Shown: piece by piece, positions 26,524-64,000 of the stretch
Layout: every line of letters begins with the position of its first letter
Numbering within the stretch: position 1 is the first letter of the stretch
Assembly: GCA_963668035.1 (NCBI GenBank)
Contig: OY764073.1
Location: forward strand, 4,743,308 to 4,807,307
DNA: 64,000 nucleotides
Reading direction: 5' to 3'
From: Candidatus Poribacteria bacterium
GTDB taxonomy: Bacteria; Poribacteria; WGA-4E; WGA-3G
Notes under the pieces: model-generated
The model's input: the letters and a program-made list of their open reading frames with translations, nothing else
What the model was told of the DNA's origin: nothing
Databases searched by the model: none
Position numbers and translations under genes: made by a program

Positions 26524-26529
26524 GGCACA

Positions 26530-50031: not shown

Positions 50032-50661
50032 ATGGCATTTACGGATTTCACATCTATTGCACAGGTGCAGGAAACCTTTGACATCAAATATGTTGAAGAA
50101 GAATACATCCGATACGATGTTGATATTGAACCTTCCTCGGCGTTTTTGGAAGAGTTCACGTTTAGCCAGCAATATATTGACGTGTTGGCTTCAGAAACGT
50201 CCCGTTGTGAGAATGTTATCTATCCGATTCTCAGAGATGTTTACAAAAAATATGCTGACCGTTTTTCGCTGTGGAGCCATAAATCTATTGCTTACGACGC
50301 GCAACTCAGTGGTACCCCGGACTACCTCATTTCAACAAAATCAGCGTTGGGAAAAACGGTGCTTGGCACCCCCATCATTGTTGTTGTTGAGGCGAAACGA
50401 AATGACTTTATAGTAGGCTGGGGGCAGTGTTTAGCGGAACTCGTTGCGATTCAACGGATCAATGATGACGCTTTGCAGCCTGTTTCTGGTATTGTAACAG
50501 ATGGTGAGATGTGGCAATTCGGCAAATTAGCTGGGGACCTATTTACGCGAAACACGTCTCCTCTCGCTATCGGCGAGTTGCGGAAGGTATTTGGAGCGAT
50601 TGGGCATTTAATGCAAGCTAATTTACCTGAAACCGCAGAGCCAAATACCCACACAGCCTAA
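50032..50661 (+). CDS. Hypothetical protein with a PD-(D/E)xK nuclease-like motif
   Basis: GTPDYLIS...IIVVVEAKRND matches a PD..(D/E)xK arrangement. Length is 209 aa. Confidence 0.35.
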   Translation: MAFTDFTSIAQVQETFDIKYVEEEYIRYDVDIEPSSAFLEEFTFSQQYIDVLASETSRCENVIYPILRDVYKKYADRFSLWSHKSIAYDAQLSGTPDYLISTKSALGKTVLGTPIIVVVEAKRNDFIVGWGQCLAELVAIQRINDDALQPVSGIVTDGEMWQFGKLAGDLFTRNTSPLAIGELRKVFGAIGHLMQANLPETAEPNTHTA

Positions 50662-50760
50662 ATTCTCTCATATCAGTATAGAAAGGACATGACTCTATGT
50701 CAATAGCGGATGAGACGTTTGCGGTCAGTGAAGCAGATAAGGCGTTGAATAGGAAATTTC

Positions 50761-51606
50761 ATGGAGAATAAACAAACCTCAACTTCAACCCGTTACTATT
50801 TTGTAGATGAGGGCGGTGATAGCACCCTCTTTTCCCGTAAAGGAAAGGCGATTGTGGGTACAGAGGGATGTTCCCGGTTTTTTGTTCTCGGTTTACTGGA
50901 CGTATTGGATCCAATAGCACTAAAAGAGCGTTTTGATCGATTGCGGGCACAACTCATGGGTGATTCCTATTTCAAGAGTGTACCCTCTATGCAACCGTCC
51001 AATAGAAAAACTGCCCTTGCCTTTCATGCCAAAGATGACCTACCTGAAGTACGGAGAGATGTTTTCAGGCTTTTGCACGACACTGAGGGGTTACGCTTTT
51101 TCGCTGTCGTTGCGGATAAAATGAACGTGCTTGAATACGTGCGCCAACGCAACAAACGAGAACCCGATTACCGTTATCACCCTAACGAACTTTACGACTA
51201 TTTGACAGGATGTTTGTTCAAAAGAAGATTACGTCAGCATTGTAGATATGATATTATCTTCTCAAAACGCAGCAAATCTGGGCGCATCCATTCCTTGCGT
51301 CAAGCAATTGAAGCGGCACCGAACCTACTACAAAATCAGGACAATTTACAAAACCATATACTAACCGATGTGTCTCTGAATATATCTGCAGCAACGCCAA
51401 AAGAATATGCTGGTTTGCAAGCCGTTGATTATTTTATCTGGGCATTACAGAGGTTTTATGAACGAGATGAAGATCGATATTTAGCCTATCTATGGAAGGC
51501 TTTCGGGCTTGTACACGATATTGATGACACACGCGAGACAGATTATGGTGTTTATTATACACAAAACAAGCCGCTCACATTAGAAGCATTAAAGGGGAGA
51601 AAATAA
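50761..51606 (+). CDS. DUF3800-like hypothetical protein
   Basis: The N-terminal YYFVDEGGDSTLF resembles the DUF3800 YxFxDESG start motif. Length is 281 aa. Confidence 0.4.
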   Translation: MENKQTSTSTRYYFVDEGGDSTLFSRKGKAIVGTEGCSRFFVLGLLDVLDPIALKERFDRLRAQLMGDSYFKSVPSMQPSNRKTALAFHAKDDLPEVRRDVFRLLHDTEGLRFFAVVADKMNVLEYVRQRNKREPDYRYHPNELYDYLTGCLFKRRLRQHCRYDIIFSKRSKSGRIHSLRQAIEAAPNLLQNQDNLQNHILTDVSLNISAATPKEYAGLQAVDYFIWALQRFYERDEDRYLAYLWKAFGLVHDIDDTRETDYGVYYTQNKPLTLEALKGRK

Positions 51607-51983
51607 AAATGCCAGGGATATAGGATTGTTCTGGGCCGTAGCCTCCCAATCACGCGGCATGGAGCCGCATTTCGTCCCTGACAATTATATTATACTATAA
51701 AATAGTATAGATGTCAAGTAGAAGTCGAATAATTTTTTTCGGAGGCAGGCAAATTAGGAGACCCTTTTGAAGGTGCTCTCCCAAATTTTACAGATGTTGC
51801 GTTTTCGGTATAAGTTTGCCCGGAGTTTTCTCAACAATTGTTGATTTTTTGGCAATTTATGACGTTTTTTTCATTTTATGCACGAAATGGACTCAAAAAA
51901 GGAGTCTATATAAGATAGCGTTGGGCGAATGTTTAGACTTAAGTGTTCACTTGTGTGTTGTTGAAACAGCGGGGTTTTGATCA

Positions 51984-53720
51984 GTGGGTGAATTGTTTCA
52001 ATTTATTTTTAACCTTGACGATCCAGTGGGAAGGAACATCGTACGGATTATTCTTGTCTGCTTTATGGCCGGAGTTTTAAACTATCTTTGGCACATCGCA
52101 GTGAGGTTGCCGTGGGAATGGTGGAATCTCCACCAAGCCAAAACCTATATTGAAAAAAAATCAGGAATAGGTGATATATCGGATTTACTTCAGAATCTCC
52201 GCGACGCGGGGATCCGGGTCCGTAGCGTCATTTACCAGCGAATCGCAGATTTCGTTCGCATTAAACAGAGTGGGGGCCACATAGATAACGATGCTCTGGC
52301 TGACATCCTCACGGGTAGAGAAAGTAGAAAAGCGAGTCTGGCGAACCATACTTTGGGCATCCTAATTATTCTCGGTTTGATAGGAACGTTATGGGGATTA
52401 ATTACCGCGCTTATTAAAGTGCAACCGCTGCTAACAGGTATCCAAGATTTTGAGCAGCTCCCCGAAATTTCCGAAACCCTTAAGGCGACTGTTGCCAGTA
52501 TGAGCACGGCATTTGCGACAACACTAACAGGATTAGGAACATCGCTCCTTTTGGGTTTTTTCGGTTGGGGTTTTAATCGTTTCCAATCCACGTTTCTGAC
52601 GCGTTTTGAAACTTATATCTCAACGGTGCTCATACCCGAATTTACACAGAGGGCAGATACGTCCATTGAGTCCGCTGTTGAGCATCTTTCCGCGGCTGCC
52701 AATATGCTGGAATTTGCAACGAAAGAAAATGTAAGGGTTATACAACAGGCGATTCAGCAATTAACGGATACGTCATGGGGCGGACGGCTGGAGCAGCAGT
52801 ACATATTGGCAAATCAATTTGGCACCACTGCTGAGAGCCTCCTTAAGAGTTTGACAGGGATCAATGAATATCAGGTTCTCATCAAAACCGCCGTTGCGCA
52901 ATTTCAGGATTTGACCACAGAGTCAATGTCTCAGATTAAGGCGTATCAAGTAACACTGCGTCAAGGGTTGGAGGATTCGGTGCCAAAACTGCAAGAAGAG
53001 AGTGAGGCGTTAAAGGAAGCAATTAGCGCGTATCAGCAGTCACAATCCCGATTTATTGACGAACTTTCGGATACTTTACAACGGCAGCTACAATCTATCA
53101 CAGAAAATCAGCAGCACATGGTTCATGTGCTTACCGAATTGGCAAAGCAACTCCAGATTCTTCCGATCCTTGAGACACAGAACCAAATTTTCGAGCGGAT
53201 CGAAATCCAGTTAGCAGAAAATCAAGAAGAAGCGATCCATACTTTTAAACAATTAGAAGGTACATTCCAAAGCAGTCTTCGCTCGGCATTTGCGGCACAA
53301 AATGAGGTGTTTATGGATATACAGGCCCAATTGATAGAAAATCGACGGGAGACTGTTGAAGCTCTTACGCACTTAACAGGTGAGCTCCAGATTCGCTCTA
53401 CGCTTGAGGCACAAAATCAAGTTTTTGAACGTATTGAAAACCATTTGATTGGGCGTAGAGAATTGGATTCTGAACAGAGACAGCTCATGCAAACGCTCAT
53501 CACAAAAATTCAGCAATTGGCGGAAGTCCCCGCGGTGGAGATAAATTCGACCGCAGGGAGAGATGCATCACAGCAAATATCGCCACAGTTGCTCAGCCAG
53601 ATATCTCTTAAACTTGAGACATTGAATCAAAAATTTGATATACTTAACAACACGACGCGGCAGCCCGGCCTTTATCGTTGGTTTTCGGAAATCCGCCGCT
53701 GGTTCGGGGGTTCTCCTTAA
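51984..53720 (+). CDS. MotA/TolQ/ExbB-family proton-channel protein with a long C-terminal coiled-coil tail (ZorA-like)
   Basis: The GTG start at 51984 is tentative. The transmembrane signatures are LGLIGTLWGL and STAFATTLTGLGTSLL. A ~350-aa heptad-rich tail with internal repeats follows (QLQILPILETQNQIFERIEIQL versus ELQIRSTLEAQNQVFERIENHL). Confidence 0.6.
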   Translation: MGELFQFIFNLDDPVGRNIVRIILVCFMAGVLNYLWHIAVRLPWEWWNLHQAKTYIEKKSGIGDISDLLQNLRDAGIRVRSVIYQRIADFVRIKQSGGHIDNDALADILTGRESRKASLANHTLGILIILGLIGTLWGLITALIKVQPLLTGIQDFEQLPEISETLKATVASMSTAFATTLTGLGTSLLLGFFGWGFNRFQSTFLTRFETYISTVLIPEFTQRADTSIESAVEHLSAAANMLEFATKENVRVIQQAIQQLTDTSWGGRLEQQYILANQFGTTAESLLKSLTGINEYQVLIKTAVAQFQDLTTESMSQIKAYQVTLRQGLEDSVPKLQEESEALKEAISAYQQSQSRFIDELSDTLQRQLQSITENQQHMVHVLTELAKQLQILPILETQNQIFERIEIQLAENQEEAIHTFKQLEGTFQSSLRSAFAAQNEVFMDIQAQLIENRRETVEALTHLTGELQIRSTLEAQNQVFERIENHLIGRRELDSEQRQLMQTLITKIQQLAEVPAVEINSTAGRDASQQISPQLLSQISLKLETLNQKFDILNNTTRQPGLYRWFSEIRRWFGGSP

Positions 53721-53748
53721 TTCTACCTAAGTCATCGGAGGTATCGTA

Positions 53749-54426
53749 ATGGATCTGCGGATGCGGAAGACATCCGTTTTGAACGTCTGGCCCGCTTTTA
53801 CTGATGTCGCTATCACGATGCTCCTTATCCTGCTATTTTTCCTGTTCATTCAGTTCCTTTCTGACATCAAACCCATCCAACAGATGCGACGGGAAAAAAA
53901 ACAGGAAGTCATGCAACGTGAATTTGAGAAACGGTTTGCAGATGAGATAGAACGTGGTATCATCGGTATTAACGTCGATGGTAACTTACAAAGTTTCAGC
54001 TTTAGCGACCGGATCCTCTTTGAAACAGCGAAGGCAGAATTACAGCCTCTCGGACGTGCGACCCTCACCGATGTCGGGAGATTATTGTTGCAACGCTACA
54101 CCGAAGGCGACAAAGGGCAATGGCAACGTGCTACAGCAGCCGAAGGCGGCGAAATCTTGTATCAAAGCGTCCAAATCAACGGACATACAGACAATGTACC
54201 GATTGAGACCTTGCAATTCCCATCAAACTGGGAACTGTCATCCGCGCGTGCCATCGCTGTCTTACGCCTTTTCGTTGATGACTTACAAATGGATCCGCTC
54301 ACTTTGCTTGCGACAGGGTATGGCAAGTACCACCCTGTCGCTTCAAATGCGTCTGTGGCAGGACGTGCGAAAAACCGCCGAATTGAGATTATACTCGTTT
54401 ACTCCGAAACCGGTGAGACCGAATGA
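53749..54426 (+). CDS. MotB/OmpA-family peptidoglycan-binding membrane anchor (ZorB-like)
   Basis: The N-terminal transmembrane helix carries a conserved Asp (FTDVAITMLLILLFF). The C-terminal OmpA-like region is NGHTDNVPI...SNWELSSARA...GYGKYHPVASNASVAGRAKNRRIEI. Confidence 0.7.
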   Translation: MDLRMRKTSVLNVWPAFTDVAITMLLILLFFLFIQFLSDIKPIQQMRREKKQEVMQREFEKRFADEIERGIIGINVDGNLQSFSFSDRILFETAKAELQPLGRATLTDVGRLLLQRYTEGDKGQWQRATAAEGGEILYQSVQINGHTDNVPIETLQFPSNWELSSARAIAVLRLFVDDLQMDPLTLLATGYGKYHPVASNASVAGRAKNRRIEIILVYSETGETE

Positions 54427-55847
54427 ATTCAGAAACGGGGAACACAATGGATACTTGTCCGTTTACGCACGAAAATACTGCCTGTGATTTGCTATCAACC
54501 GAGCTCAAACGGGACATTGGACAGATGCCGAAAGCGGCTTATTGCCAACAATGTTCCGCGGTCGCCTTTCGGTGTTCTGATGGCCATTGGAACCGTACCT
54601 TTGCCCGTTTTTGCACACAATGTGGCGAAAAGCTTGAAAAACCGCGAGTATGGGAGATGGCTTCCGCGAATTCACAGCGCACAGCCACAGTTACATCGGA
54701 AGGGTTGGTGGATTCACTGTCCAGTGATTTCGGTTTCACTTCTTGGTCGCTGGACATACCGAGGGTGGAAACTCGCGAGAATTTGCCGGCTTTGTTGGCA
54801 ATTGATGGAATCGTTGTTGTACCAAATCCGGGTGCAGGTAGGCTTGATGTTTACCCGATTGCTAAATCATCTGCACAGCGGCGGATACGTCCGGAATGGA
54901 GCATCGAGCTTAATGCACCAGGGACATACGGTTCAACACCTATCTATCATGACCTCCATCTCTTTTACGTTATATCCGGCAGCATTCAGAAAAAGTCAAT
55001 TCTGGGCGGAGAGGCGGAACCTGTCCCGTTAGCAGGCGTGGATGCTGCAGAGATCGAACCCGCGCCCGAAGCCGCTCCTTTAAAATTTGAGATAGATGAT
55101 AAATATTTTATGCTTGCACCCATGAAACAACATGGGGTATTATTGTTTGACCTCACGGACTATAAAAAACTTTACATTAAGGATAAATTCTTTGCATCGG
55201 AGAACAGACCGATGTCGCCGACGATCTGTGGCAAGTACGCAATTTTCACATCTCACGAAGGCGGTATTTTTTCTCTCAACACGGAGACTCTTAAGTCGTG
55301 GTCCAAAACCTGGACGAGTTTGTCGTTTTCAGCCCCCGTTTCGCTTAACGGTTCGGTCTACTTTGAAGTCCTGGATAACAGCGGTGCCCGCAGCCTCGCG
55401 TGTTATGGACCCCAGAACAATGAATTATCGAAAATCTATGATTTAGATTGCGAACCACCAAACGCTTTAGACCAACGCAGGTCGCTTTTTATCCACCCGC
55501 CGCTCACAGATGGAAAGCGATTGTTTTTAGCCGATAGATTCGCAGAGACGGTCTATACCTATCATAGCGAGCATCGGTACGATGAAAAGAGACCGCTGCG
55601 TAAGGATAACCGTCAACCTTTATTTATCCCGCACCGATCGGTTGTAGTGGGCAATCAAATTTATTCCGCACATTCAGCGGGGTTGACTGTTATTGATGTC
55701 AATAGAGACTACACGCATTCATATCAATCGTTAGCGGTGGGGAGCCCGCGCAACCCGTCGCCTGTCGCTCCACCGATTCGTTATGGAGACAAGTTATTCA
55801 TCCTCTGTAAGGAGCAATTAGTTTGTCTGAATACCCGGAGAAATTGA
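54423..55847 (+). CDS. Zinc-ribbon-containing protein with a PQQ-like beta-propeller-like C-terminal region
   Basis: It overlaps the zorB-like stop (ATGA). The N-terminal Cys clusters are CPFTHENTAC and CQQCSAVAFRC...CTQCG. The remainder shows repeated G-x-hydrophobic blades. Confidence 0.4.
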   Translation: MNSETGNTMDTCPFTHENTACDLLSTELKRDIGQMPKAAYCQQCSAVAFRCSDGHWNRTFARFCTQCGEKLEKPRVWEMASANSQRTATVTSEGLVDSLSSDFGFTSWSLDIPRVETRENLPALLAIDGIVVVPNPGAGRLDVYPIAKSSAQRRIRPEWSIELNAPGTYGSTPIYHDLHLFYVISGSIQKKSILGGEAEPVPLAGVDAAEIEPAPEAAPLKFEIDDKYFMLAPMKQHGVLLFDLTDYKKLYIKDKFFASENRPMSPTICGKYAIFTSHEGGIFSLNTETLKSWSKTWTSLSFSAPVSLNGSVYFEVLDNSGARSLACYGPQNNELSKIYDLDCEPPNALDQRRSLFIHPPLTDGKRLFLADRFAETVYTYHSEHRYDEKRPLRKDNRQPLFIPHRSVVVGNQIYSAHSAGLTVIDVNRDYTHSYQSLAVGSPRNPSPVAPPIRYGDKLFILCKEQLVCLNTRRN

Positions 55848-55851
55848 AGTG

Positions 55852-57786
55852 ATGAAGCTTTCAAGAAATCCATTTATGATAGCGGTTTTACTTGCTTTTA
55901 TTTTTTTCGTGCCTGCTGTGAATGCCAAACACATCATCGTGACTTACGATGTGTCTGGCAGTATGTTGCGTCATCATAACAAAACGTATATGAGATCCGA
56001 GGATATCAGCAGGCTCAATACATACTTGACAAAACTGATTTTCACAGATATGTCGCACCCTTTGCTGGATAACAGTAAGGACAAATTCATCAAGGAATGC
56101 GATTCCGCGTACGCTGGCAGAAGCCTCTATCAGGCGGGTGATGTCCTCACCTACGCTGAGTATGCCGAGGATCGACGCGAGAAAATAAGCAGATCACCGG
56201 TGAACGCTAACGAATTTCAGGAACAGCTGCCTGATCCGACGAATTTAAGGCGGTCCTTTTATGGGATGGTATCTTACTTATTGCGCGCCGAAGTCGAGGT
56301 ATACGATGAATTGTTCAAAGAGGCGGATGACGAAACGTATTGGATCTTTGTGACGGACGGCGACATTGATCGTAGTGAAGAAAGTGATTCTGAAATCCGC
56401 CAAGTTTTACAGCGGCATGCGCAAATTGAAGAGGGATTCCATTCTCCGCTGATTTGCAGTATCCTTTTCAATGATCGTGTCAAAATCGAAGTGAGACGAA
56501 TCCAGAGGCGCGTAGTTATTGACACAATCTTCGTTGCCAATCAGACACACGCGAAGACAGAGATTCAAGACATCCAATTTGGAAGGGATGATACGGGACA
56601 ATTGGATGATATTGGACAGTTTACCAGCGAAACCTTGATTATTAACACGGAAAGCTCCGAAAAAACGGCATTCACATTGGGCAGTGTCACCGTTAAAGTT
56701 ACCGATAAAAACGGTAGCCCGCTTCAAATTGTTGGCGAGGATAATAGCACAAAGCCTCTACAGATTGCGCCTATCTCACTCCAAGGAAAATCACCACCGG
56801 CTATGTTCCGCATCTCACTCCCAGCATACTCCGAATTTACAGCACCTGAGAATTTATTGAGCCTTGAGGTCTTCTATAGTTATAACGGGGTTGACAGCGT
56901 GCATCAGGTACTGCCGGTCAGTTATACTGCGGTGATTGATAACATCTATTTGTCAGCGGGAACACTCCGCGTCCTATCTCCGGAAGACGCATCCATACCT
57001 TTCGGAGAACGCGGATGGCGAGGCGGAGAATTGGAACTATGGCTTCTGGACGACACTTACCTCGGAGAGCTTGTTGTTCAGAGCGAAAGCCGGAACAAAG
57101 CGGCTTTTCAGATCAAAGAAATTCTGTGTTATGTTCAAGATAAAGCCGGTCAAAAACTTTGCGATGCAAGTGTTTCAAATTCTCCAGAGAGTTTAGGGGA
57201 GCGGTTTCAAATTGCGGTTCCGAAACGCGAACGTTTGGATTGGTTTGGAAACAGTTTGACTTTGGAAATTAAATACCAATATGACGAGAAACCCAAAACT
57301 GTAGATGTTTTGATCCCCTTTAAACTCCGGTCAAACAGCGGTTTTCCGACATGGCTGCTGATTATTCTGCTATGTGTCGTGGTAATTCTTCTACTGTTTT
57401 TTGTGATCCGTGGGGTGCAAAGTTTGATAACACCGGATCCCGTGGAGATTAGGTTAGCTGAAGTTGGTGGAGATGGTATTGAGCGGAGTTTTAACCTCAC
57501 ACACAAGGCACATCTTGAATTTGGTCCCGGTGACGACGAGACATTGCGTTTTGATGTCGGCAGTTCTGCCCTCTTACGCTGCCGCCACGGAAGAATTTCG
57601 CTTTATGAAAACGCCCTTGCCGAGGAAGGAGAAGTATTAAGCACCAGTCAAACACTCACAGTGCGGCGCGACAGCGACGACGAACAGATTTCCATCAGTT
57701 TTGAAATTGTGGATGACGAACCGCAAGAAACCTTTGAGGATGACATCACCGAAGAGACTGAAGAGGATGACCCACTCCCTTATTAG
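55852..57786 (+). CDS. Membrane-anchored von Willebrand factor A (vWA) domain protein
   Basis: A signal peptide is followed by the MIDAS motif IIVTYDVSGSM (DxSxS). A late transmembrane helix FPTWLLIILLCVVVILLLFFVI and an acidic C-terminal tail EDDITEETEEDDPLPY follow. Confidence 0.55.
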   Translation: MKLSRNPFMIAVLLAFIFFVPAVNAKHIIVTYDVSGSMLRHHNKTYMRSEDISRLNTYLTKLIFTDMSHPLLDNSKDKFIKECDSAYAGRSLYQAGDVLTYAEYAEDRREKISRSPVNANEFQEQLPDPTNLRRSFYGMVSYLLRAEVEVYDELFKEADDETYWIFVTDGDIDRSEESDSEIRQVLQRHAQIEEGFHSPLICSILFNDRVKIEVRRIQRRVVIDTIFVANQTHAKTEIQDIQFGRDDTGQLDDIGQFTSETLIINTESSEKTAFTLGSVTVKVTDKNGSPLQIVGEDNSTKPLQIAPISLQGKSPPAMFRISLPAYSEFTAPENLLSLEVFYSYNGVDSVHQVLPVSYTAVIDNIYLSAGTLRVLSPEDASIPFGERGWRGGELELWLLDDTYLGELVVQSESRNKAAFQIKEILCYVQDKAGQKLCDASVSNSPESLGERFQIAVPKRERLDWFGNSLTLEIKYQYDEKPKTVDVLIPFKLRSNSGFPTWLLIILLCVVVILLLFFVIRGVQSLITPDPVEIRLAEVGGDGIERSFNLTHKAHLEFGPGDDETLRFDVGSSALLRCRHGRISLYENALAEEGEVLSTSQTLTVRRDSDDEQISISFEIVDDEPQETFEDDITEETEEDDPLPY

Positions 57787-58032
57787 TACCGATGTGATAG
57801 GGGTTCAGACTGTACGGAGAAGTCTGCTCCCCTTACGCGCTGCGAACACATTGACAAACTATTGACAATGTGATACTATTCATACAGTGCTTGCGATTGG
57901 AAGGACTACTGCTACGCATAAAGCGATGGAGTATGCAGTGTCCAAGTGTGAGCGTTCCAATAAACATTTGCTTTTGGTAAACGATTTAGCTTGTGCAAAT
58001 ATCGCCAACTTTGCCAAATTTAAGGAGATCAA

Positions 58033-58395
58033 GTGCAGAATTTTGACTTTCTTGCCAATTCGCTGGTTTGGCCGGTTTACTTCGGCCTCGTTACTTACAT
58101 TCTCGCGTGGGTTGGCGCGCGTTTCTTTGCCGGTATACTTGCAAAGCGAATCGGTAGTGAACGCGGCGGCACTGAACGCGGGACAATTCAAGCATGGCGC
58201 ATGATGATTATTCTGCATCTGATCGCGTCGGCAATTTTTGTCGGTTATCTCTGCTTTCGTGCACTCCCGCGGGTTGAGGAATGGACAGATACCCTCTGGC
58301 ATCTGGTTCCATTTCTACCGTTTCTCGTTTTGGATGTATGCTTGTTAATATCATTGGCGTCCCAGGGTCCGAAAAAGCAAAAGAAAAAACAATGA
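58033..58395 (+). CDS. Small 3-transmembrane membrane protein with a lysine-rich tail
   Basis: GTG 58033 lies 5 nt after AAGGAGA. Three hydrophobic helices are followed by the C-terminal GPKKQKKKQ. Confidence 0.45.
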   Translation: MQNFDFLANSLVWPVYFGLVTYILAWVGARFFAGILAKRIGSERGGTERGTIQAWRMMIILHLIASAIFVGYLCFRALPRVEEWTDTLWHLVPFLPFLVLDVCLLISLASQGPKKQKKKQ

Positions 58396-58413
58396 ATTTA
58401 GGAGGAGTATATT

Positions 58414-61400
58414 ATGGTGCAACCAACGTTGTTTATTGGCCTCGGAACAACCGGATTGAATATTCTTAAAACGCTCCGTCAGTTCATGTTTGAGGAATAT
58501 GCGACGGGCGGTTTGCCGGTGTTTCGCTATGTTGCGATCGAGACTGACGAAAGAAATACAGACTCACAACAGGGCGAAGCTTACGAGCAAATTGACGTGG
58601 TTCACGCTACGATTGGAAGCACTAACCCCATTGGCCTCAAACTGAATCGTGATGAGACATCTTATTACAACCCTGATTTGGAAGACTGGCTTGAGGCCTC
58701 CCTTCTAACTGAAATTACAAGCTTTCGAGAGGGGGCGCGCAACATTCGCATGGCCGGTAGGTTGTGTTTGTGGGAAAACTGGAACGACATGCGTGATACG
58801 ATCCATCGTGCCTATACGGATATGGTAGCAGACGAATCACGCCGTGAAACTGAGCGGATTTTGACCCAATACTATAACACCAAAGGTTTGGAGTGTCCTG
58901 CACAACTGGTAGATCTGGGAAATATTAATGCTTATGTCGTCGGTTCGCTTTGCGGTGGTTCTTGCAGTGGTATGCTCATTGAGGTCGCATACTTCCTCAG
59001 AAATCTTTTGGGTGACCCTAAAACTACCCAAATTTACGGTATGTTCACTATGTTCGACAAGGATCTAGTGATGGAACCGGGGAAAGATGCTGCGGTGCGT
59101 GCAGCCAATTGCTATGCCAGTCTTTGGGAACTCAATTACTACAGTCATATCGATACGACTTACAGCGTTACCACGCCGAATGGAGAACGGCTTGCCGAGG
59201 CGGCGCAGCGGCCTTTCAATTACACAATGCTGGTCTCTCGTACTGGGAAAAATCCTAACATCAAATTCACGAGACCTGGTATCTCTTTTGATGAGGAAGG
59301 TTTGAACCTGATGGTCGCTCTGAATCTCTTTGCCGAAACCGCCGGAGATACGGTTGAGACCAAGGGGGCTATCCGTACAGATTGGGCAGGTTTCGCCGGT
59401 TATGGCGAATTAAAATCTGGTGCAATGGGTGAAATTCCTGTCATGATAAGAGATATGGCGAGTTTTGGGTTAACCGCAGTATGGTATCCGAAATATAGGA
59501 TTGCCAATGCTGCTGCCTGCTTAGTTAGCAAAAGCTTATGTGAGAGTTGGTTGGACCAACATACATCTAAGGCTGATATTGCTGCAGATGTTGAAAAGGC
59601 ACAAGATACGATCATCCGCGGGAATCTGGGTATCCTCGCGCGTCCGGCAGTAGCCGGAAGACCCTCACTGGATTCAGAAATCGAAAATCTGCTTAACGAG
59701 GTGCGTACACGGTTTAGTCAGGCACCCTCCAATACATTGGAATCCGAGGTGCGTGCGTTTCCAAAGGGTGAAGGGGGTGCTTTCAGAGCCAGATTTGCCG
59801 AAGGCGGAACCTATTTCAAAGCGATGCAAGAAAATCTCGCTGCGTGCAAAGCCGCATTGCTTAATGAAATTGATGAGTCTTTCAACAACCAGTTAGCAAG
59901 GATTGATTTAGAGGGGACATACGGTTTAGGCGATGTGCGGGTCTTCTTTAGGGAATTAGCAGATGCTATCACCAGAACGAGGGACCAATATCCTGCGGAG
60001 CCGCCTACTTTAGAGTTCAGCCAACTTGATTTTGGACCGATGCGGGGTGCTGAAAAGAATTTTTGGACGAAAATTACCGGTAATCAAGAGGATGCCGTGA
60101 ACGAACACCGGGAAAATTTAATGCAGAGCTATAGGCAGTTGATTACCGGAGACCGGGGAATCTTCCGAAAACTCCGCGGTTACTTTCTGCGCCAAGCTTT
60201 GGATGCCGTGCTCGCTAAACTCGGTTTTCAGGTTCACACCGATGATTCATCTGAATCCACAATCCAACAGGAATTGGATGAACTTCAGAGAACGCTCAAT
60301 AATTGCGTTCAGACATTTGAGGAGACGTACCAAGATAGTGTGCAACCGCCAAGCTCTGAATGTGTCCGAATTGTGACGCTCAATCCTGAAAACGAAATTA
60401 GCAAGGATACCGAGGACCTGAGCAAAACCGTTAACGGAAATCGAGCGAACGCGGGATTGTTCGATCGAGATGGGACGGCCTCTTTCTTGAAGAAAGGGCA
60501 TGAGGACATCACATATCACCTGAGTGAAACCTATCGTCGTTCGGCGTTGCGCGAACTCGATCGGGGAGGCGCAGGAAGAGCACAAGTTGTTGCAAAGGCA
60601 CGGGAACTTTTAGATGCCGAGGGTAACCAGATTGAAGCGTTGGCTGTCCGATCCAATCCTTACCAAAAGTTTGCTGACACCTACCAACCCTTTAAATTGG
60701 CAGTAGAGCCGAAGATTATCTTTGGACATGACTCAACAGGTGAACATTTAGCACACCTCAGAGAACGTCTGCAGTTTGACCGTATCGGCAGTTCTCCTAT
60801 TGACCACCTTCTCTTTTTCTACGAGGAGGAAGCCGGTTTTGCCTTAGATGACTTGGATGCATACGCAGCCCTTAGATCTCAATTTGAGGCTTGCCCAGGG
60901 AAATACGGCCATTCTACGCATCAAGATGTGAACTTTTACGATTTGGAAATTCCGCACCGAAGCAAACGGTTAGAGCGTTGGTGTCAGGCACTCACGGCTC
61001 TTGTTCCTTTAATCTCGGCATCTGATCCGGAGGCGTTCGTAGGCGTATTTACGCAGACACCGAGCGACGATATCTTGTTTGAATACCAGATTGATGGCGT
61101 AAATAGAGCACTTTCTTTGTTCAATGAAGAAGGGATTAGGGAACTCTGCCAGGCAGAAAACGAGAGCACTTATGACAGGTTTTTTGAATCAGTAGAGGCA
61201 GCATTGAAACGACTGGGGCGTGAACGAATTGAAAAGGTCGTCAATGAAAGACTACTGACCAAAGTTGAAAATATTGAGGAACGGAATACGTTGTCCGTTT
61301 TCTACGCTGAGTTTTTGAAGGATGTCTATCCAGATGCTGGATTCGAGACACATGATAATGCAGGTTCACAAGACGATGCACATGCTAACGTTGAATCCGA

Positions 61401-61704
61401 GGCCCCGGCAGCTTCCGAAACTGAGGACAGTGCTTTTAAATTTGAAGACATACTCTATCTCCAAACGGTTGTCCAAAAGCCGATGGGAGATTGGACAACG
61501 GAAGAACAAGCGTTGATGCGGAACTTTACTTTTGAAGATGTGCTGCGGCTCCAAGCCGTTTTCCAAAAACCGATGGGAGAATGGACACCAGAGGATCAGG
61601 CGTTAATGCAGCGTTTTAAACAAAATTCTGCAAGCACCGAACCTTCAGATGGATATGACTCAGAGGGCACTGAAGGCACTGAGTCTCACGGCACTTTGGC
61701 GTAG
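58414..61704 (+). CDS. Giant (1096 aa) protein with an N-terminal tubulin/FtsZ-like GTPase-like region and a C-terminal tandem repeat
   Basis: A strong RBS AGGAGG precedes the start. LFIGLGTTGLNIL resembles the T1 loop IGVGGGGNN. GGSCSGM resembles the T4 loop GGGTGSG. The C-terminal repeat FKFEDILYLQTVVQKPMGDWTTEEQALM / FTFEDVLRLQAVFQKPMGEWTPEDQALM appears twice. Confidence 0.45.
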   Translation: MVQPTLFIGLGTTGLNILKTLRQFMFEEYATGGLPVFRYVAIETDERNTDSQQGEAYEQIDVVHATIGSTNPIGLKLNRDETSYYNPDLEDWLEASLLTEITSFREGARNIRMAGRLCLWENWNDMRDTIHRAYTDMVADESRRETERILTQYYNTKGLECPAQLVDLGNINAYVVGSLCGGSCSGMLIEVAYFLRNLLGDPKTTQIYGMFTMFDKDLVMEPGKDAAVRAANCYASLWELNYYSHIDTTYSVTTPNGERLAEAAQRPFNYTMLVSRTGKNPNIKFTRPGISFDEEGLNLMVALNLFAETAGDTVETKGAIRTDWAGFAGYGELKSGAMGEIPVMIRDMASFGLTAVWYPKYRIANAAACLVSKSLCESWLDQHTSKADIAADVEKAQDTIIRGNLGILARPAVAGRPSLDSEIENLLNEVRTRFSQAPSNTLESEVRAFPKGEGGAFRARFAEGGTYFKAMQENLAACKAALLNEIDESFNNQLARIDLEGTYGLGDVRVFFRELADAITRTRDQYPAEPPTLEFSQLDFGPMRGAEKNFWTKITGNQEDAVNEHRENLMQSYRQLITGDRGIFRKLRGYFLRQALDAVLAKLGFQVHTDDSSESTIQQELDELQRTLNNCVQTFEETYQDSVQPPSSECVRIVTLNPENEISKDTEDLSKTVNGNRANAGLFDRDGTASFLKKGHEDITYHLSETYRRSALRELDRGGAGRAQVVAKARELLDAEGNQIEALAVRSNPYQKFADTYQPFKLAVEPKIIFGHDSTGEHLAHLRERLQFDRIGSSPIDHLLFFYEEEAGFALDDLDAYAALRSQFEACPGKYGHSTHQDVNFYDLEIPHRSKRLERWCQALTALVPLISASDPEAFVGVFTQTPSDDILFEYQIDGVNRALSLFNEEGIRELCQAENESTYDRFFESVEAALKRLGRERIEKVVNERLLTKVENIEERNTLSVFYAEFLKDVYPDAGFETHDNAGSQDDAHANVESEAPAASETEDSAFKFEDILYLQTVVQKPMGDWTTEEQALMRNFTFEDVLRLQAVFQKPMGEWTPEDQALMQRFKQNSASTEPSDGYDSEGTEGTESHGTLA

Positions 61705-61727
61705 TCATAAAAGAGATAATTGATTAT

Positions 61728-64000
61728 GGCAAACACGATATGTCCGAAATGCAATGTCGATTGGGAAATTCTCGCGCAGGATCAATATTGCGGTTATTGC
61801 GGTCATAAAGTTTTTGATTTTTCGGTGGAATGGGATGGCAAGAAAGAACCGCTCTTTTATGAAAGTCAAAGTGGAGGCGAACAGTCACTGACACTTCTCG
61901 TAAAAAATACGGGTGTTGCCCCGATTACGTTTGAACCGCTTCAGATGCCCCCGGGAGAAGCGGTTCAGGTGTTAGGCGAGAATAAAAAATTTAAAGTCGC
62001 GGCTAACCAAGCCCGCGCGCTTGCACTTTCTATTAATTCCGGAAAGTTGACGAGCGAGCCGCTTCAGATGCTGACAGTGCGGCCACAAAAAACGTCCGCC
62101 GAACTTAAAGAGGCGCGATTGACATTTCGGGCGTTACGGCATCCCGACTTTAAGCTGACACCCAGTTTTCTCCCGATTCGTTATCACAAAAACACGAAAA
62201 CGAAGACAGTGGACCTGCGGCTTGAGGTCGCGCGCAGCGAATTTTATATCTACAAGATTGAATCCGCGCAGGCATGGATCAAAGACATTGCGTTTGTTGA
62301 CTTTACGCCGCAAGAGCGTCTTGGCGAAAAACAGACACCGAAAAGCATCCGCCTGGAGATTGATTGCAACGCTCTCAAAGACGGACTCAATAAAGCGATG
62401 TTAGTTGTTCAGCTGCGCGGGATTCCTGAGCCCATACAACAGGAAATTCGCTTCAATGCGGAGGTGCAACCTGACCCCCCGGCACTATCTGTCCAGCTGC
62501 CGACATCACATCTTGAAGTCCATCAGAACAGGAAAAAAAGTTACCCTTTGACGCTTAAGAATGAAGGGGAGCTGCGGTTGGACATTTCAAACATTAGTTT
62601 CAGCGATTCTCCGTACCTCGTCCAATTGGCGGATGTCGACCTTCCCATACATATTGAGGGAGGGAAAGAGCTGCAGCTGGACTTGATGGTATCTCCGGCG
62701 GACATTCAACCGCAAACGTACCCTATCGACTTCGTTGTTACCTCCAATTGTGAGCGCGCACAGCAGTATCAAGATGTGCTGCATGTAACAGTCAAACCCC
62801 AAGAAGTGTATCCACATCATCTCGCGATTGATTTTGGGACAACAAATTCCTGTTGTGCCTACATCGATACAGATTATAAAATAATACTTCTCCCACTCGA
62901 TAGCGAAGCGGATCCACCGGATATTATGCCTTCATCCATTATTTACCACGACCACCCTGAAAACGAAAAGACATACCAGGTTGGATACGACGCTGAGACG
63001 CAACGGACGGGTGCTGATAGTCCGTATTATGTCTCTTCTGTGAAAAGGTGGTTAGGGTATGGATGGCATCGGCAATTTCCGAACAACATGGCGTTGCAAC
63101 CGCGCGATGTGGTCTCGGATATCCTCAAACACATCATCAACACGGCAGCAGATTATCTGGAGCAACAACACCTCCCTTCGAAGGTTCAGAGATGTGTCGT
63201 TACATACCCGACGATGTTTACCCGACAGCAGCAGGACGACTTGAAAGAAGCTTTTAAGAATATCGGTATCTCCGAACTCATCCTTATTGATGAAGCTTCA
63301 GCAGCCTCCATGGAGATCATCTTTAAAAAACAGGAAACCTTACAAAATAACTACAGACTGTTGGTCTATGATTTCGGAGGTGGCACCATTGATATCGTTC
63401 TCTCTCAGGTAACAATTGATGACAACGATATCACCATTGAACCGATCGCCCGCGGCGGAAGTCGCAGATACGGCGGCGACGACGTAACACACGCAATCGT
63501 TGACTTTATCCTCCAGGAATTCAAGGCGCGAATCCAAAAGGCACATCCAGACCTCAATTTCGACATCCCATATTTTAAACCCAAGCAGATTGTGAAAATC
63601 ACTGGAAATGAGGAGATTGATAGAGCGACATACAGTAACGTCGCTAGCTTGTTCCGACGCGCGGAGGAGATGAAAAAAGAACTGAATACACAAACGGAGA
63701 CAGAATTCTTTTTTCCTTTGGAGGTTAGCATCGAAAATGAGGTACGTAGCTCTAATGAACTCACCCAAGACGTTTCAGGTGTGAAACTTTCAGCGGAACA
63801 ATTTCGAGCGTTTATTGAACCTGAACTCAAGGAAACTTTCGCAAATATTGATGCAATGCTTGCTGAAAATGACGAGCTTTTACCCGATACCGTAGTCCTT
63901 GCCGGTCAGTCATCCAGAATGCAATTAGTTAAAGATATGATGGCAACCCATTTCCAGGAAAAATATGGGAAAGCGGTTGAGATCGAACTTAATCAACAGC
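61728..64000 (+). CDS. Hsp70/DnaK-family ATPase with an N-terminal zinc ribbon and Ig-like region (3'-truncated by the window end)
   Basis: The N-terminal CPKC...CGYCG is a zinc ribbon. The phosphate-1 motif AIDFGTTNSCCAY, phosphate-2 VYDFGGGTIDIVL and adenosine motif VVLAGQSSRMQLVKDMM are all present. The ORF is open to position 64000, which is why it is not in the complete-ORF track. Confidence 0.75.

What the first reader, a model, noticed from the sequence alone, without database searches (positions are those of the whole stretch)
51984..64000. ZorAB-like stator module clustered with vWA, tubulin/FtsZ-like and Hsp70-like genes: candidate undescribed system
Seven co-directional, tightly spaced genes, some with overlapping or RBS-coupled starts, combine three kinds of module. 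The first is a MotA/ExbB-type channel with a ~350-aa coiled-coil tail plus a MotB/OmpA-type anchor, which is the ZorA/ZorB architecture of Zorya. The second is a zinc-ribbon beta-propeller-like protein, a membrane-anchored vWA protein and a small transmembrane protein. The third is two cytoskeletal-fold NTPases: a 1096-aa tubulin/FtsZ-like candidate and a zinc-ribbon-fused Hsp70/actin-fold ATPase. I know of no Zorya type (I: ZorC/ZorD; II: ZorE; III: ZorF/ZorG) or other named system with this partner set. The locus sits beside a PD-(D/E)xK protein and a DUF3800-like protein, a defence-island-like context. It could be a novel proton-motive-force-coupled defence or membrane-remodelling machine. 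The cluster continues past the window end.
Basis: partly seen in the sequence, partly recalled or inferred. Interest (0 to 1): 0.9.

Follow-up and report, generated by a model that had tools for sequence, protein, structure and literature searches.

The report
Zorya-like motor with tubulin-like operon
A real, strongly conserved operon (seven genes here, at least twelve in relatives) of Poribacteria-like bacteria joins a Zorya-type proton-driven membrane motor to a tubulin-like GTPase and an Hsp70-type ATPase; comparative genomics catalogued its core gene pairing in 2010, but its function has never been tested.

Summary
The seven genes exist as described and form one tightly coupled operon. HMMs confirm four of them. 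These are a MotA/ExbB-type channel with a ~380-aa helical tail (best hit PADLOC ZorA3), a MotB/OmpA anchor (ZorB3), an FtsZl1 protein (Pfam Tubulin_2, 2e-43) and a zinc-ribbon-fused Hsp70. A structure model shows that the "vWA" protein is signal peptide, vWA-like domain, two Ig-like domains, a TM helix and a cytoplasmic FHA domain.

A relative shows the cluster continuing past the window with five more conserved genes. The 11-12-gene order is kept in 16 Poribacteria species genomes, plus one contig-truncated locus, at 42-50% identity. Flanks are syntenic within subclades. In Deinococcus, Armatimonadota, Actinomycetota and Verrucomicrobiota, FtsZl1 again sits next to ZorA/ZorB-like genes. Hsp70-like genes are present in 15 of 43 assessable loci.

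The system is not undescribed. Makarova and Koonin (2010) catalogued vWA-FtsZl1-"B7"-MotB and FtsZl1-MotA-OmpA operons. Kaur et al. (2020) described tubulin/vWA and Hsp70 conflict systems. It is not Zorya, because ZorC-G are absent and tail length varies. It contains no DO-GTPase.

Function is untested. I favour an envelope-triggered conflict machine (0.4) over a constitutive remodelling or adhesion machine (0.35). Verdict: new variant of a known, uncharacterised kind. Interest 0.6.

The parts
51984..53720 (+). G1: ZorA-like subunit. It is a MotA/ExbB/TolQ-type channel (two TM segments by hydropathy plus a third read by eye; ExbB/TolQ-like LGLIGTLWG signature, as I recall that signature). It carries a ~380-aa all-helical cytoplasmic tail containing three ~39-aa repeats.
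   Evidence: Pfam MotA_ExbB 7.3e-5 and PADLOC ZorA3 1.3e-12. TM segments. AF2 model all-helical but pLDDT 50; the top Foldseek hits are ExbB, MotA, PomA and TolQ, none significant. Repeats and orthologue lengths of 568-776 aa among full-length orthologues. Invariant G131, G134, T135, G138, A176 and F177.
53749..54426 (+). G2: ZorB/MotB-like subunit. It has an N-terminal TM helix with an invariant aspartate (D19) and a C-terminal OmpA-type peptidoglycan-binding domain.
   Evidence: Pfam OmpA 3.3e-12 and PADLOC ZorB3 4.5e-23. The orthologue profile hits MotS, MotB and PomB PG-binding domains (1e-26 to 1e-17). It also hits full-length Zorya B subunits 8vvn_B (9e-14) and 8qyd_F (7e-11); I identify these entries as ZorB from memory. 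Invariant residues.
54423..55847 (+). G3: cytoplasmic protein with an N-terminal zinc ribbon followed by a beta-rich domain, possibly a PQQ-type beta-propeller.
   Evidence: Invariant C41/C44/C64/C67. Weak Zn_Ribbon_1 and Beta-prop_ACSF4 hits in orthologues. No PDB sequence hit. Homologues sit next to FtsZl1 in L022, L025, L035 and L040.
55849..57786 (+). G4: bitopic envelope protein. The order is signal peptide, periplasmic vWA-like domain (MIDAS-like DxSxS...TDGD), two Ig-like beta-sandwiches, TM helix (501-527) and cytoplasmic FHA domain (532-620).
57787..58032 (.). The only long intergenic gap of the operon (246 nt; about 230 nt in relative L001). It contains a TG-extended sigma70-like site at 57851-57879 (+), a possible internal promoter.
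   Evidence: The number of promoter-like sites in the region is not above the shuffle expectation. No Rfam match.
58033..58395 (+). G5: small three-TM protein immediately upstream of FtsZl1. It is a candidate membrane anchor or partner of FtsZl1.
   Evidence: Three hydrophobic segments. A 105-130-aa three-TM ORF lies directly upstream of FtsZl1 in Poribacteria, Deinococcus, Armatimonadota, Actinomycetota, Verrucomicrobiota, Lentisphaerae, Bacteroidota and Omnitrophota loci.
58414..61704 (+). G6: FtsZl1-family tubulin/FtsZ-like GTPase. It has the Tubulin_2 domain (6-371), a conserved ~600-aa extension, and an acidic low-complexity tail carrying two copies of a short WT-E-QALM motif.
   Evidence: Pfam Tubulin_2 2.1e-43. 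Invariant GLGTTG and CGGSCSG nucleotide-binding motifs and conserved D293/E294. Tails. The profile finds 1321 cluster representatives at E<=1e-10, and most full-length matches cover ~950 or more positions. No PDB sequence relative.
61726..64000 (+). G7 (cut by the window end): zinc ribbon, about three Ig-like (HYDIN/ASH-type) domains, then the Hsp70 ATPase domain. Full-length orthologues add SBD-beta. In this clade they also add a coiled-coil extension homologous to downstream genes D2/D3.
   Evidence: Pfam HSP70 1.1e-26. The full-length 1167-aa orthologue in L001. The profile hits DnaK at 1e-53, with one stretch covering DnaK 5-497. Invariant DFGTTNS, K440, DE(522-523) and DFGGGTID motifs. 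The C-terminus is homologous to D2/D3.

Best explanation
This is the Poribacteria-type, expanded version of the FtsZl1-centred envelope system.

Shown (sequence and fold level). The cluster encodes a peptidoglycan-anchored MotB/ZorB-like subunit and a MotA/ZorA-like subunit with a long cytoplasmic helical tail, that is, a Zorya-type motor of the MotAB family (5:2 in solved members). It also encodes a trans-envelope protein with a periplasmic vWA-like domain and a cytoplasmic FHA domain, a small three-TM protein, an FtsZl1 tubulin-like GTPase with intact nucleotide-binding motifs, and an Hsp70 with intact ATPase motifs. In relatives it adds a LapG-like periplasmic cysteine protease, TM coiled-coil proteins and a large Ig-repeat protein. 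All are inherited as one operon.

Inferred. The ZorAB-like unit works as in Zorya. Perturbation of the envelope or peptidoglycan lets protons flow, and the ZorA pentamer with its tail turns around the PG-fixed ZorB dimer. The vWA-FHA protein relays a periplasmic binding event to the cytoplasm. Instead of recruiting a nuclease, these inputs control GTP-dependent assembly of FtsZl1 at the membrane, tethered by the small TM protein or the FHA domain. The Hsp70 binds the FtsZl1 tail or partner peptides to load or dismantle the assembly. The output is local membrane or envelope remodelling, or containment.

Most likely role: a threshold-controlled response to envelope breach (phage or other conflict) rather than routine growth.
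For: Operon coupling is shown. The cluster extends to at least 12 genes in L001 and L075.

The same order is kept in 16 Poribacteria genomes, plus one contig-truncated locus. The numbers of 90%-identity clusters found for G6, G4 and G1 are near equal (216, 208, 201).

Cross-phylum adjacency is common. FtsZl1 lies next to ZorA/B-like genes in 23 of 38 loci that have at least 3 kb of downstream sequence. Hsp70-like genes are present in 15 of 43. The small TM partner is widespread.

Conflict-type hallmarks:
- The best HMM matches of G1 and G2 are Zorya models.
- FHA and vWA signalling modules are present.
- The ZorA tail, the FtsZl1 tail, the Hsp70 extension and the D2/D3 copy number all vary.
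- FtsZl1 is duplicated in tandem in some genomes, and a second, divergent FtsZl1 sits beside XPB-helicase/DUF790/AAA_35 genes (L028).
- A GmrSD gene lies two genes upstream of FtsZl1, directly upstream of the vWA-PKD gene, in L034.
- Different defence-like cargo lies directly upstream of G1 in the window (PD-(D/E)xK, DUF3800) and in its 86%-identical relative (MTase-HNH, FRG-TPR).
- The family is sparse overall, with 1321 representatives at E<=1e-10 among 1.84 billion. It is plasmid-borne in D. deserti.
- Kaur et al. interpret tubulin/Hsp70/vWA systems as conflict systems.
Against: No experiment exists for any FtsZl1 system (searches found none).

No recognisable toxic effector (nuclease, NADase or pore) is in the cluster.

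Within Poribacteria the cluster looks vertically inherited. Flanks are syntenic and D1 and D4 are very conserved (69-73% mean column identity). This fits a housekeeping machine equally well.

No relative was found in viral contigs.

Tail length varies widely, unlike Zorya, where uniform length is reported as essential.

The ZorA assignment rests on a borderline Pfam score, one PADLOC profile and a low-confidence model (pLDDT 50).

Physical coupling between the ZorA tail, FtsZl1 and Hsp70 is pure inference.
Confidence: 0.4

Rival explanations
1. It is a constitutive cell-biological machine. The PMF motor and two NTPases would drive inner-membrane or envelope remodelling, as in the original Makarova-Koonin proposal. 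Alternatively they would drive an adhesion or gliding-type surface apparatus. In that version the periplasmic vWA protein is the adhesive or ligand-binding part and the LapG-like protease releases it.
For: The 11-12-gene order and the flanks are conserved across Poribacteria subclades. D1 and D4 are very conserved. No toxin-like effector is present, and PADLOC hits nothing except ZorA/B. The components span cytoplasm, inner membrane and periplasm. D4 resembles PDB 4fgo (7e-5), which I recall to be the Legionella adhesin-releasing protease LapG. Makarova & Koonin argued for membrane remodelling. From my own knowledge, the Myxococcus Agl-Glt gliding machinery also combines a MotAB/TolQR-like motor, a cytoskeletal NTPase (MreB) and a vWA adhesin (CglB).
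Against: FtsZl1 is sporadic across bacteria. It occurs as multiple divergent paralogues with different partner sets and is plasmid-borne in one Deinococcus. The G1-proximal junction collects defence-like genes. The ZorA and FtsZl1 tails evolve fast. The fraction of Poribacteria carrying the cluster could not be measured.
Confidence: 0.35
2. It is a member of the DO-GTPase/GAP1-N2 conflict systems of Kaur et al. 2020, in their tubulin or Hsp70 'theme'.
For: It shares tubulin-family, vWA, Ig/FNIII-like and Hsp70 components and membrane-proximal organisation with them.
Against: None of the 12 conserved proteins has a Walker-A P-loop, so the defining DO-GTPase is absent. No GrpE or DnaJ was found. 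Those systems are described from Firmicutes and Actinobacteria and without a MotA/ZorA partner. GAP1 itself could not be tested because no model was available.
Confidence: 0.05
3. The channel/anchor pair is an ordinary TolQR, ExbBD or flagellar MotAB stator that merely lies next to unrelated genes.
For: The G2 PG-binding domain scores best against flagellar MotS, MotB and PomB structures. The top Foldseek hits of the G1 model are ExbB, MotA and TolQ.
Against: G1 matches no NCBIfam TolQ, ExbB, MotA or PomA model. All G2 hits are 3-10 fold below the curated cutoffs. G1 carries a ~380-aa tail that those stators lack. No Tol, Ton or flagellar partner genes were seen among the window genes scanned (about 25.8-51.6 kb). 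The pair is co-inherited with FtsZl1 in several phyla.
Confidence: 0.02

Closest known systems
FtsZl1-centred predicted 'membrane remodelling system' (Makarova & Koonin 2010, Biol Direct 5:33, PMC2875224)
   Same: It shares the FtsZl1 (Pfam Tubulin_2) core next to a membrane-associated vWA protein and an OmpA/MotB-family protein. Their Additional file 5 lists vWA-FtsZl1-B7-COG1360 in Anabaena, Cyanothece and Microcystis. It also lists FtsZl1-MotA/TolQ/ExbB-OmpA in Deinococcus, a 108-109-aa ORF just upstream of FtsZl1, and a DnaK-like neighbour in Magnetospirillum.
   Different: The Poribacteria cluster unites all these partners in one operon. It adds a ZnR/beta-rich protein, an FHA tail on the vWA protein, D1, D2/D3, a LapG-like protease and an Ig-repeat protein. 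It lacks the GTPase and Ser/Thr kinase that the paper stresses. The paper read the OmpA partner as a membrane or porin-type protein and left B7 unassigned. The reading of the pair as a Zorya-type tailed stator is made here.
Zorya anti-phage systems types I-III (ZorAB plus ZorCD, ZorE or ZorFG)
   Same: It shares a MotA-like subunit with a long C-terminal helical tail plus a MotB-like subunit with a TM aspartate and a PG-binding domain. The best PADLOC matches are ZorA3 and ZorB3. The B-subunit profile aligns full length to solved ZorB chains (chain identities from memory).
   Different: No ZorC, D, E, F or G is present. Partners are cytoskeletal and chaperone NTPases, not nucleases. The tail is shorter (~380 aa) and its length varies (total length 568-776 aa in full-length Poribacteria orthologues, ~400 aa in Deinococcus). 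Zorya tail length is reported as uniform and essential. There is no detectable sequence match of the G1 motor domain to solved ZorA.
DO-GTPase/GAP1-N2 systems with tubulin, vWA and Hsp70 themes (Kaur, Burroughs, Iyer & Aravind 2020, eLife 9:e52696)
   Same: It shares tubulin-family plus vWA plus Ig/FNIII-type proteins, or Hsp70, in membrane-proximal multi-gene conflict-type neighbourhoods.
   Different: There is no P-loop GTPase and no GrpE or DnaJ. A ZorAB-like motor is present. The phyla differ.
FtsZ-FtsA divisome core (established knowledge)
   Same: A tubulin-fold GTPase with a disordered tail ending in short conserved peptides is encoded beside an actin/Hsp70-superfamily ATPase and small membrane tethers.
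   Different: G7 is a true Hsp70 with a substrate-binding domain, not FtsA. FtsZl1 is about 1100 aa with a large extra domain. Makarova & Koonin note that FtsZl1 typically co-occurs with a conventional FtsZ. No binding has been shown.
Myxococcus Agl-Glt gliding machinery and the Lap (LapD/LapG/LapA) adhesion switch (own knowledge, not tested here)
   Same: These combine a PMF-driven MotAB/TolQR-like motor, a cytoskeletal NTPase and a vWA-domain surface protein (Agl-Glt). They also include a periplasmic transglutaminase-like cysteine protease (the LapG fold, matched by D4 at 7e-5).
   Different: No Glt, MglA or LapD homologues were identified. The vWA protein is anchored in the inner membrane. 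The resemblance is functional analogy only.

Membership tests
Zorya anti-phage system | ZorA: MotA/ExbB-type three-TM channel subunit with a long C-terminal helical tail | tested here: met
   PADLOC ZorA3 1.3e-12 (residues 120-516), Pfam MotA_ExbB 7.3e-5. Two TM segments by hydropathy plus a third read by eye, and an all-helical tail. The top Foldseek hits are ExbB, MotA and TolQ, but the model is low confidence.
Zorya anti-phage system | ZorB: MotB-like subunit with a TM aspartate and an OmpA-type peptidoglycan-binding domain | tested here: met
   PADLOC ZorB3 4.5e-23, Pfam OmpA 3.3e-12. Invariant D19, GHTD, LS..RA and R..E motifs. PDB ZorB chains hit at 9e-14 and 7e-11 (chain identities from memory).
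Zorya anti-phage system | Type-specific soluble partners: ZorC+ZorD (I), ZorE (II) or ZorF+ZorG (III) | tested here: not met
   PADLOC scans of G3-G7 and of the downstream genes D1-D4 and F0 found no Zor model. They gave only unspecific coiled-coil matches for D2 and D3.
Zorya anti-phage system | Uniform ZorA tail length within a type | tested here: not met
   Full-length Poribacteria orthologues are 568-776 aa with 0-5 copies of the 39-aa repeat motif. The Deinococcus version is ~400 aa. Zorya tails are reported as consistent in length.
Zorya anti-phage system | Protection against phage infection | not testable with these tools
   This needs phage-challenge assays.
FtsZl1-centred predicted system (Makarova & Koonin 2010) | FtsZl1-family protein (Pfam Tubulin_2, ~1000-1100 aa) | tested here: met
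   Tubulin_2 2.1e-43 over residues 6-371. Conserved GLGTTG and CGGSCSG motifs.
FtsZl1-centred predicted system (Makarova & Koonin 2010) | Adjacent, often membrane-associated vWA-domain protein with an intact MIDAS motif | tested here: met
FtsZl1-centred predicted system (Makarova & Koonin 2010) | OmpA/MotB-family partner, with a MotA or 'B7' membrane protein in some lineages | tested here: met
   G2 and G1. The same pairing occurs in Deinococcus, Armatimonadota and Actinomycetota loci. Identity of family B7 with ZorA-like proteins is inferred and was not tested.
FtsZl1-centred predicted system (Makarova & Koonin 2010) | Diverged P-loop GTPase and/or Ser/Thr kinase in the operon (frequent, not universal) | tested here: not met
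   No Walker A motif in the 12 conserved proteins. No kinase Pfam hit. An FHA domain implies a kinase encoded elsewhere.
DO-GTPase/GAP1 conflict systems (Kaur et al. 2020) | One or two TRAFAC-clade DO-GTPases | tested here: not met
   No P-loop motif in any cluster protein.
DO-GTPase/GAP1 conflict systems (Kaur et al. 2020) | GAP1 protein (GAP1-N/M/C domains) | not testable with these tools
   No GAP1 profile or reference sequence was available.
Tol-Pal, Ton or flagellar stators | Match to curated TolQ/ExbB/MotA and TolR/ExbD/MotB family models, and presence of their partner genes | tested here: not met
   NCBIfam gives nothing for G1. G2's best hit scores 114.9 bits against a cutoff of 283. 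No Tol, Ton or flagellar genes were seen among the window genes scanned, about 25.8-51.6 kb.
Hsp70 chaperones | Actin-fold NBD with catalytic motifs plus the beta-sandwich substrate-binding domain | tested here: met
   The orthologue profile hits DnaK at 1e-53, with one stretch equal to DnaK 5-497. Invariant phosphate-1, phosphate-2, K and DE motifs. The window copy is cut after the NBD.

The most novel reading that the evidence does not exclude
A peptidoglycan-anchored, proton-driven rotary stator is mechanically coupled through its long cytoplasmic tail to a membrane-tethered tubulin-like polymer, with a dedicated Hsp70 as assembly/disassembly factor. This would be a previously unrecognised kind of prokaryotic cytomotive machine. 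It could act as a nuclease-free 'Zorya type' that walls off or remodels the membrane at a site of envelope breach. Alternatively it could be the apparatus behind intracellular membrane organisation in Poribacteria.
Probability: 0.3. Interest if true: 0.9.

Novelty: new variant of a known kind. Interest (0 to 1): 0.6.

Why it matters
FtsZl1 has been an orphan branch of the tubulin/FtsZ superfamily for 15 years. I found no solved structure and no experimental paper.

Reading its recurrent OmpA and 'B7'/MotA neighbours as a Zorya-type tailed stator gives the first concrete, testable mechanistic handle. Candidate tests are PMF dependence, the D19 proton site, PG binding, tail length and FHA-phosphothreonine signalling.

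If the motor really acts on a tubulin-like filament, it would link two major classes of bacterial machinery, MotAB-family ion motors and cytoskeletal GTPases. It would also extend the Zorya principle beyond nuclease effectors.

The Poribacteria cluster is the most complete version seen here. Deinococcus radiodurans (DR_0534-0540) offers a genetically tractable minimal version.

Tried and rejected
1. An exact look-up of the window's own FtsZl1 (and of P0001) to extend the contig found nothing on record. The extension came from an 86%-identical relative instead.
2. Profile searches of G3, G4, D1 and FtsZl1 against PDB sequences returned nothing useful.
3. I suspected that D1 is a degenerate actin/Hsp70 fold. 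hhalign aligned the expected motifs but gave probability 0.8% and E 0.07. Pfam on 12 orthologues gave nothing. This is left unresolved.
5. The G1 monomer model had pLDDT 50, so its fold hits are only indicative.
6. The G1 profile against PDB gave only coiled-coil matches, with a weak tail match (0.016) to chain 8vvn_C, deposited as a MotA/TolQ/ExbB-domain protein and recalled to be a ZorA.
8. No FtsZl1 relative was found in viral contigs. There was no Rfam family and no DNA tandem repeat in the region.
9. Literature searches for ZorAB plus tubulin, for the locus tags and for anti-phage plus tubulin plus vWA found no relevant paper.
10. Rejected readings: an ordinary Tol/Exb/Mot stator, bona fide Zorya I-III, and a DO-GTPase system. 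See the membership tests.

Full report
OBSERVATION

The region 51984-64000 carries seven co-directional ORFs on the + strand:
- G1 51984-53720 (578 aa)
- G2 53749-54426 (225 aa)
- G3 54423-55847 (474 aa)
- G4 55849-57786 (645 aa)
- G5 58033-58395 (120 aa)
- G6 58414-61704 (1096 aa)
- G7 from 61726, running off the window (758 aa read)

The junctions are operon-like. G1/G2 have a 28-nt gap with GGAGG. G2/G3 share an ATGA overlap. G3/G4 have a 1-nt gap. G5, G6 and G7 each follow an AGGAG-type site. One 246-nt gap separates G4 from G5. Nothing on the opposite strand competes with these ORFs. There is no Rfam family and no tandem DNA repeat.

WHAT THE PROTEINS ARE

G1 is a MotA/ExbB-superfamily channel subunit.
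- It hits Pfam MotA_ExbB at 7.3e-5, just at the gathering score, and PADLOC ZorA3 at 1.3e-12 over residues 120-516. It has weaker ZorA1 hits.
- Two TM segments pass the hydropathy threshold, and I read a third by eye at residues ~175-197.
- It has the LGLIGTLWG and A-F-x-TT-x-GL signatures, which I recall as typical of ExbB/TolQ. G131, G134, T135, G138, A176 and F177 stay invariant even against Deinococcus and Armatimonadota homologues.
- Residues ~200-575 are predicted entirely helical. The monomer model is poor (pLDDT 50). Its best PDB matches are nevertheless all ExbB, MotA, PomA and TolQ chains (E 0.06-0.4, not significant).
- The tail holds three ~39-aa repeats. Full-length orthologues range from 568 to 776 aa.
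- No NCBIfam TolQ, ExbB, MotA or PomA model matches G1.

G2 is MotB/ZorB-like.
- It hits Pfam OmpA at 3.3e-12 and PADLOC ZorB3 at 4.5e-23, full length.
- All NCBIfam MotB-type hits are far below cutoff.
- The TM aspartate D19 and the PG-binding motifs are invariant.
- An orthologue profile matches MotS, MotB and PomB PG-binding domains. It also matches 8vvn_B and 8qyd_F full length; I identify these as Zorya B subunits from memory.

G3 has an invariant CxxC...CxxC zinc ribbon. There is only weak beta-propeller evidence.

G4 has no Pfam hit.
- It has an invariant DxSxS...TDGD motif set.
- A 34-sequence AF2 model (pLDDT 73.6) shows a signal peptide, an alpha/beta domain (28-220), two beta-sandwiches, a TM helix (501-527) and a C-terminal beta domain.
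- G4 is therefore a periplasmic vWA-like sensor or adaptor wired to a cytoplasmic phosphothreonine-binding module.

G5 is a three-TM mini-protein.

G6 is an FtsZl1 protein.
- Pfam Tubulin_2 scores 2.1e-43.
- The GLGTTG and CGGSCSG nucleotide-binding motifs are invariant. A conserved acidic pair (D293/E294) sits where a T7 loop would be; this placement is inferred.
- A ~600-aa conserved extension follows, then an acidic disordered tail ending in short clade-specific peptide motifs.
- No PDB chain is detectably related by sequence.

G7 is a zinc ribbon plus Ig-like domains plus a genuine Hsp70.
- Pfam HSP70 scores 1e-26.
- The orthologue profile hits DnaK at 1e-53 over NBD plus SBD-beta.
- The catalytic motifs are intact.

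BEYOND THE WINDOW

The window's own contig could not be retrieved. An 86%-identical relative (L001) shows the operon continuing:
- Full-length Hsp70 of 1167 aa. Its C-terminal extension is homologous to D2/D3.
- D1, 409 aa, very conserved, fold unresolved.
- D2 and D3, coiled-coil paralogues. D2 has an N-terminal TM hairpin; no TM segment passed the threshold in D3.
- D4, a probable N-terminal signal sequence (read from the alignment consensus), a transglutaminase-like Cys protease domain, a Pro-rich linker and a TM anchor.
- A large downstream protein: an Ig-repeat protein of ~870 aa (F0) in most loci, and a TM+PEGA+TPR protein (D5) in L001.

D4 matches PDB 4fgo at 7e-5. I recall 4fgo to be Legionella LapG.

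CONSERVATION

A scan of one genome per species with an FtsZl1 alignment gave 73 loci.
- 16 Poribacteria genomes keep the order ZorA-ZorB-G3-G4-G5-FtsZl1-Hsp70-D1-D2(-D3)-D4 at 42-50% FtsZl1 identity, plus one contig-truncated locus, L017. The F0 family follows in 17 loci.
- L075 and L006 carry two tandem FtsZl1 genes. L075 even tolerates an IS element between G3 and G4.
- Database-wide, G6, G4 and G1 return near-identical numbers of 90%-identity clusters (216, 208, 201).
- Flanks are syntenic within subclades. The window, L005 and L016 share the upstream ABC transporter and SDR.
- The PD-(D/E)xK + DUF3800 pair is a 1.6-kb, lower-GC insertion found only in the window. L001 carries MTase-HNH and FRG-TPR genes at the same junction.

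Outside Poribacteria, iterated profiles give the following.
- ZorA/ZorB-like genes lie next to FtsZl1 in 23 of 38 loci with at least 3 kb downstream. These include all seven assessable Deinococcus loci, Armatimonadota and Actinomycetota. In Verrucomicrobiota only a ZorA-like gene was detected, on the opposite strand.
- Hsp70-like genes occur in 15 of 43 loci.
- G3 and G4 homologues occur in Lentisphaerae, a deltaproteobacterium and unclassified MAGs.

A ~105-130-aa three-TM ORF directly upstream of FtsZl1 is the most universal partner. In L034 the gene upstream of FtsZl1 has Pfam VWA_2 + PKD, and a GmrSD gene lies directly upstream of that vWA gene. FtsZl1 as a whole is a small family. It has 3107, 1321 and 192 representatives at E<=1e-3, 1e-10 and 1e-30 among 1.84 billion, and most full-length matches are full-length. 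None was found in viral contigs.

WHAT IS KNOWN

Makarova & Koonin (2010) defined FtsZl1 and proposed an FtsZl1-centred membrane-remodelling system with vWA, a GTPase, kinases and OmpA-family proteins. Their Additional files list:
- vWA-FtsZl1-B7-COG1360 (cyanobacteria)
- FtsZl1-MotA/TolQ/ExbB-OmpA-LRR-STK (Deinococcus)
- vWA-FtsZl1-vWA-vWA-DnaK (Magnetospirillum)

B7 is annotated only as 'membrane-associated protein'.

Kaur et al. (2020) placed tubulin+vWA and Hsp70 themes within DO-GTPase/GAP1-N2 conflict systems. No protein of this cluster has a P-loop.

I found no paper linking ZorAB to tubulin-like proteins. I found none on the Deinococcus, Anabaena or Magnetospirillum locus tags.

The Zorya papers describe ZorAB as a PG-anchored 5:2 motor whose tail is essential and of uniform length.

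INTERPRETATION

Shown:
- The composition, topology and co-inheritance of a ZorAB-type stator with FtsZl1, Hsp70 and a vWA-FHA trans-envelope protein.
- The absence of Zorya effectors, of GTPases and of recognisable toxins.

Inferred:
- The stator senses or powers envelope events as in Zorya.
- Its tail, the FHA domain and the small TM protein organise GTP-dependent FtsZl1 assembly at the membrane.
- Hsp70 remodels that assembly.

Two biological roles remain open.

I give 0.4 to a triggered conflict or envelope-breach response. The reasons are:
- The family distribution is sparse, includes paralogues and is plasmid-borne in one case.
- The tails are variable.
- The logic is FHA/vWA signalling.
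- Defence cargo accumulates at the junction upstream of G1.
- The best HMM matches of G1 and G2 are Zorya models.

I give 0.35 to a constitutive remodelling or adhesion machine. The reasons are:
- Inheritance in Poribacteria is vertical and syntenic.
- The accessory genes are highly conserved.
- There is no toxic effector.
- The cluster includes a LapG-like protease.

The 'ordinary stator with unrelated neighbours' reading is excluded.

VERDICT

The cluster is a real, uncharacterised, PMF-linked multi-NTPase system. It is a new, expanded variant of a gene-neighbourhood type catalogued since 2010, not a categorically new one. Its defence-island context is weak. Interest is 0.6.

Noticed in passing
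window 25804-36750: A low-GC (0.39-0.43) defence island. It holds a SEC-C-motif protein, SMODS cyclase + SAVED-HNH effector (CBASS), SMODS-AGS_C cyclase + patatin phospholipase (a second CBASS), an HTH-IrrE/M78 regulator and an Eco57I-like type IIG restriction-modification enzyme. About 13 kb of housekeeping genes separate it from the operon.
   Followed up: partly
window 50032-51606: A PD-(D/E)xK protein (PADLOC PD_DExK 1e-43) and a DUF3800 protein (DUF3800_VII 3e-13) form a 1.6-kb lower-GC insertion between the conserved SDR gene and G1. The 86%-identical relative L001 has an N6_N4 MTase-HNH, an integrase fragment and an FRG-TPR protein at this junction instead. The junction looks like a hotspot for defence-like cargo.
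   Followed up: partly
window 51689-51717 (- strand): A perfect sigma70 consensus (TTGACA-17 nt-TATAAT, 12/12) points leftwards in the DUF3800-G1 intergenic region. No ORF of 60 aa or more lies immediately downstream of it. It may drive an antisense or small RNA, or it may be chance.
   Followed up: no
window 61420-61630 (G6 residues ~1003-1070): The acidic C-terminal tail of FtsZl1 carries two copies of F-x-FED-x-L-x-LQ-x-V-x-QKPMG-x-WT-x-E-x-QALM-x-x-F. Other Poribacteria clades instead end in a VW-x-E-x-EP motif and a terminal F[SN]VADVD peptide. This is reminiscent of the FtsZ linker plus C-terminal peptide that binds membrane tethers.
   Followed up: partly
window 53150-53450 (G1 residues ~390-490): Three ~39-aa repeats (QN[QE]xFxxI[EQ] at residues 399, 439, 477) lie in the ZorA-like tail. 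Close relatives have up to five copies and are up to ~760 aa long, so tail length evolves by repeat gain and loss. No repeat is detectable at the DNA level.
   Followed up: partly
L075 2842-3790 and 6612-12946; L006 10001-15847: In one Poribacteria contig an IS element (HTH_Tnp_4 + DDE_Tnp_1) sits between G3 and G4 without disrupting either. That contig, and also L006, carry two tandem FtsZl1 paralogues. One is ~1077 aa with the acidic tail and the other ~981 aa without it. This hints at a heteropolymer.
   Followed up: no
L008 4862-14688: A compact alternative arrangement occurs in one Poribacteria genome: ZorA-like (780 aa, Pfam MotA_ExbB + apolipoprotein-like tail), ZorB-like, LapG-like D4, a small ORF, FtsZl1 and F0. 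It lacks G3, G4, Hsp70 and D1-D3.
   Followed up: partly
L028 6083-17360; L034 5973-9933: A second, divergent Poribacteria FtsZl1 lies among XPB-type helicase, DUF790 and several AAA_35 ATPase genes. In a Limisphaerales genome a GmrSD type IV restriction enzyme directly precedes the vWA-PKD gene upstream of FtsZl1.
   Followed up: no
L001 13298-16798, L013 19803-22403, L035 3304-5730: Ig-like domains of the Hsp70-like protein, F0 and a deltaproteobacterial neighbour hit Pfam models built from eukaryotic cilium and centrosome proteins (HYDIN/CFA65 Ig, ASH, Cep192 D4/D6). These proteins sit next to a tubulin homologue. This is probably only the shared PapD/MSP-like fold, but it is curious.
   Followed up: no
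L001 16917-18143 (D1): D1 (409 aa) is among the most conserved proteins of the cluster (69% mean column identity) yet matches no Pfam, PADLOC or PDB sequence. hhalign places its VITPYQW and LIDF-x-x-x-D motifs on the Hsp70 'TYPTMF' and 'YDFGGGTID' motifs, but without significance.
   Followed up: partly
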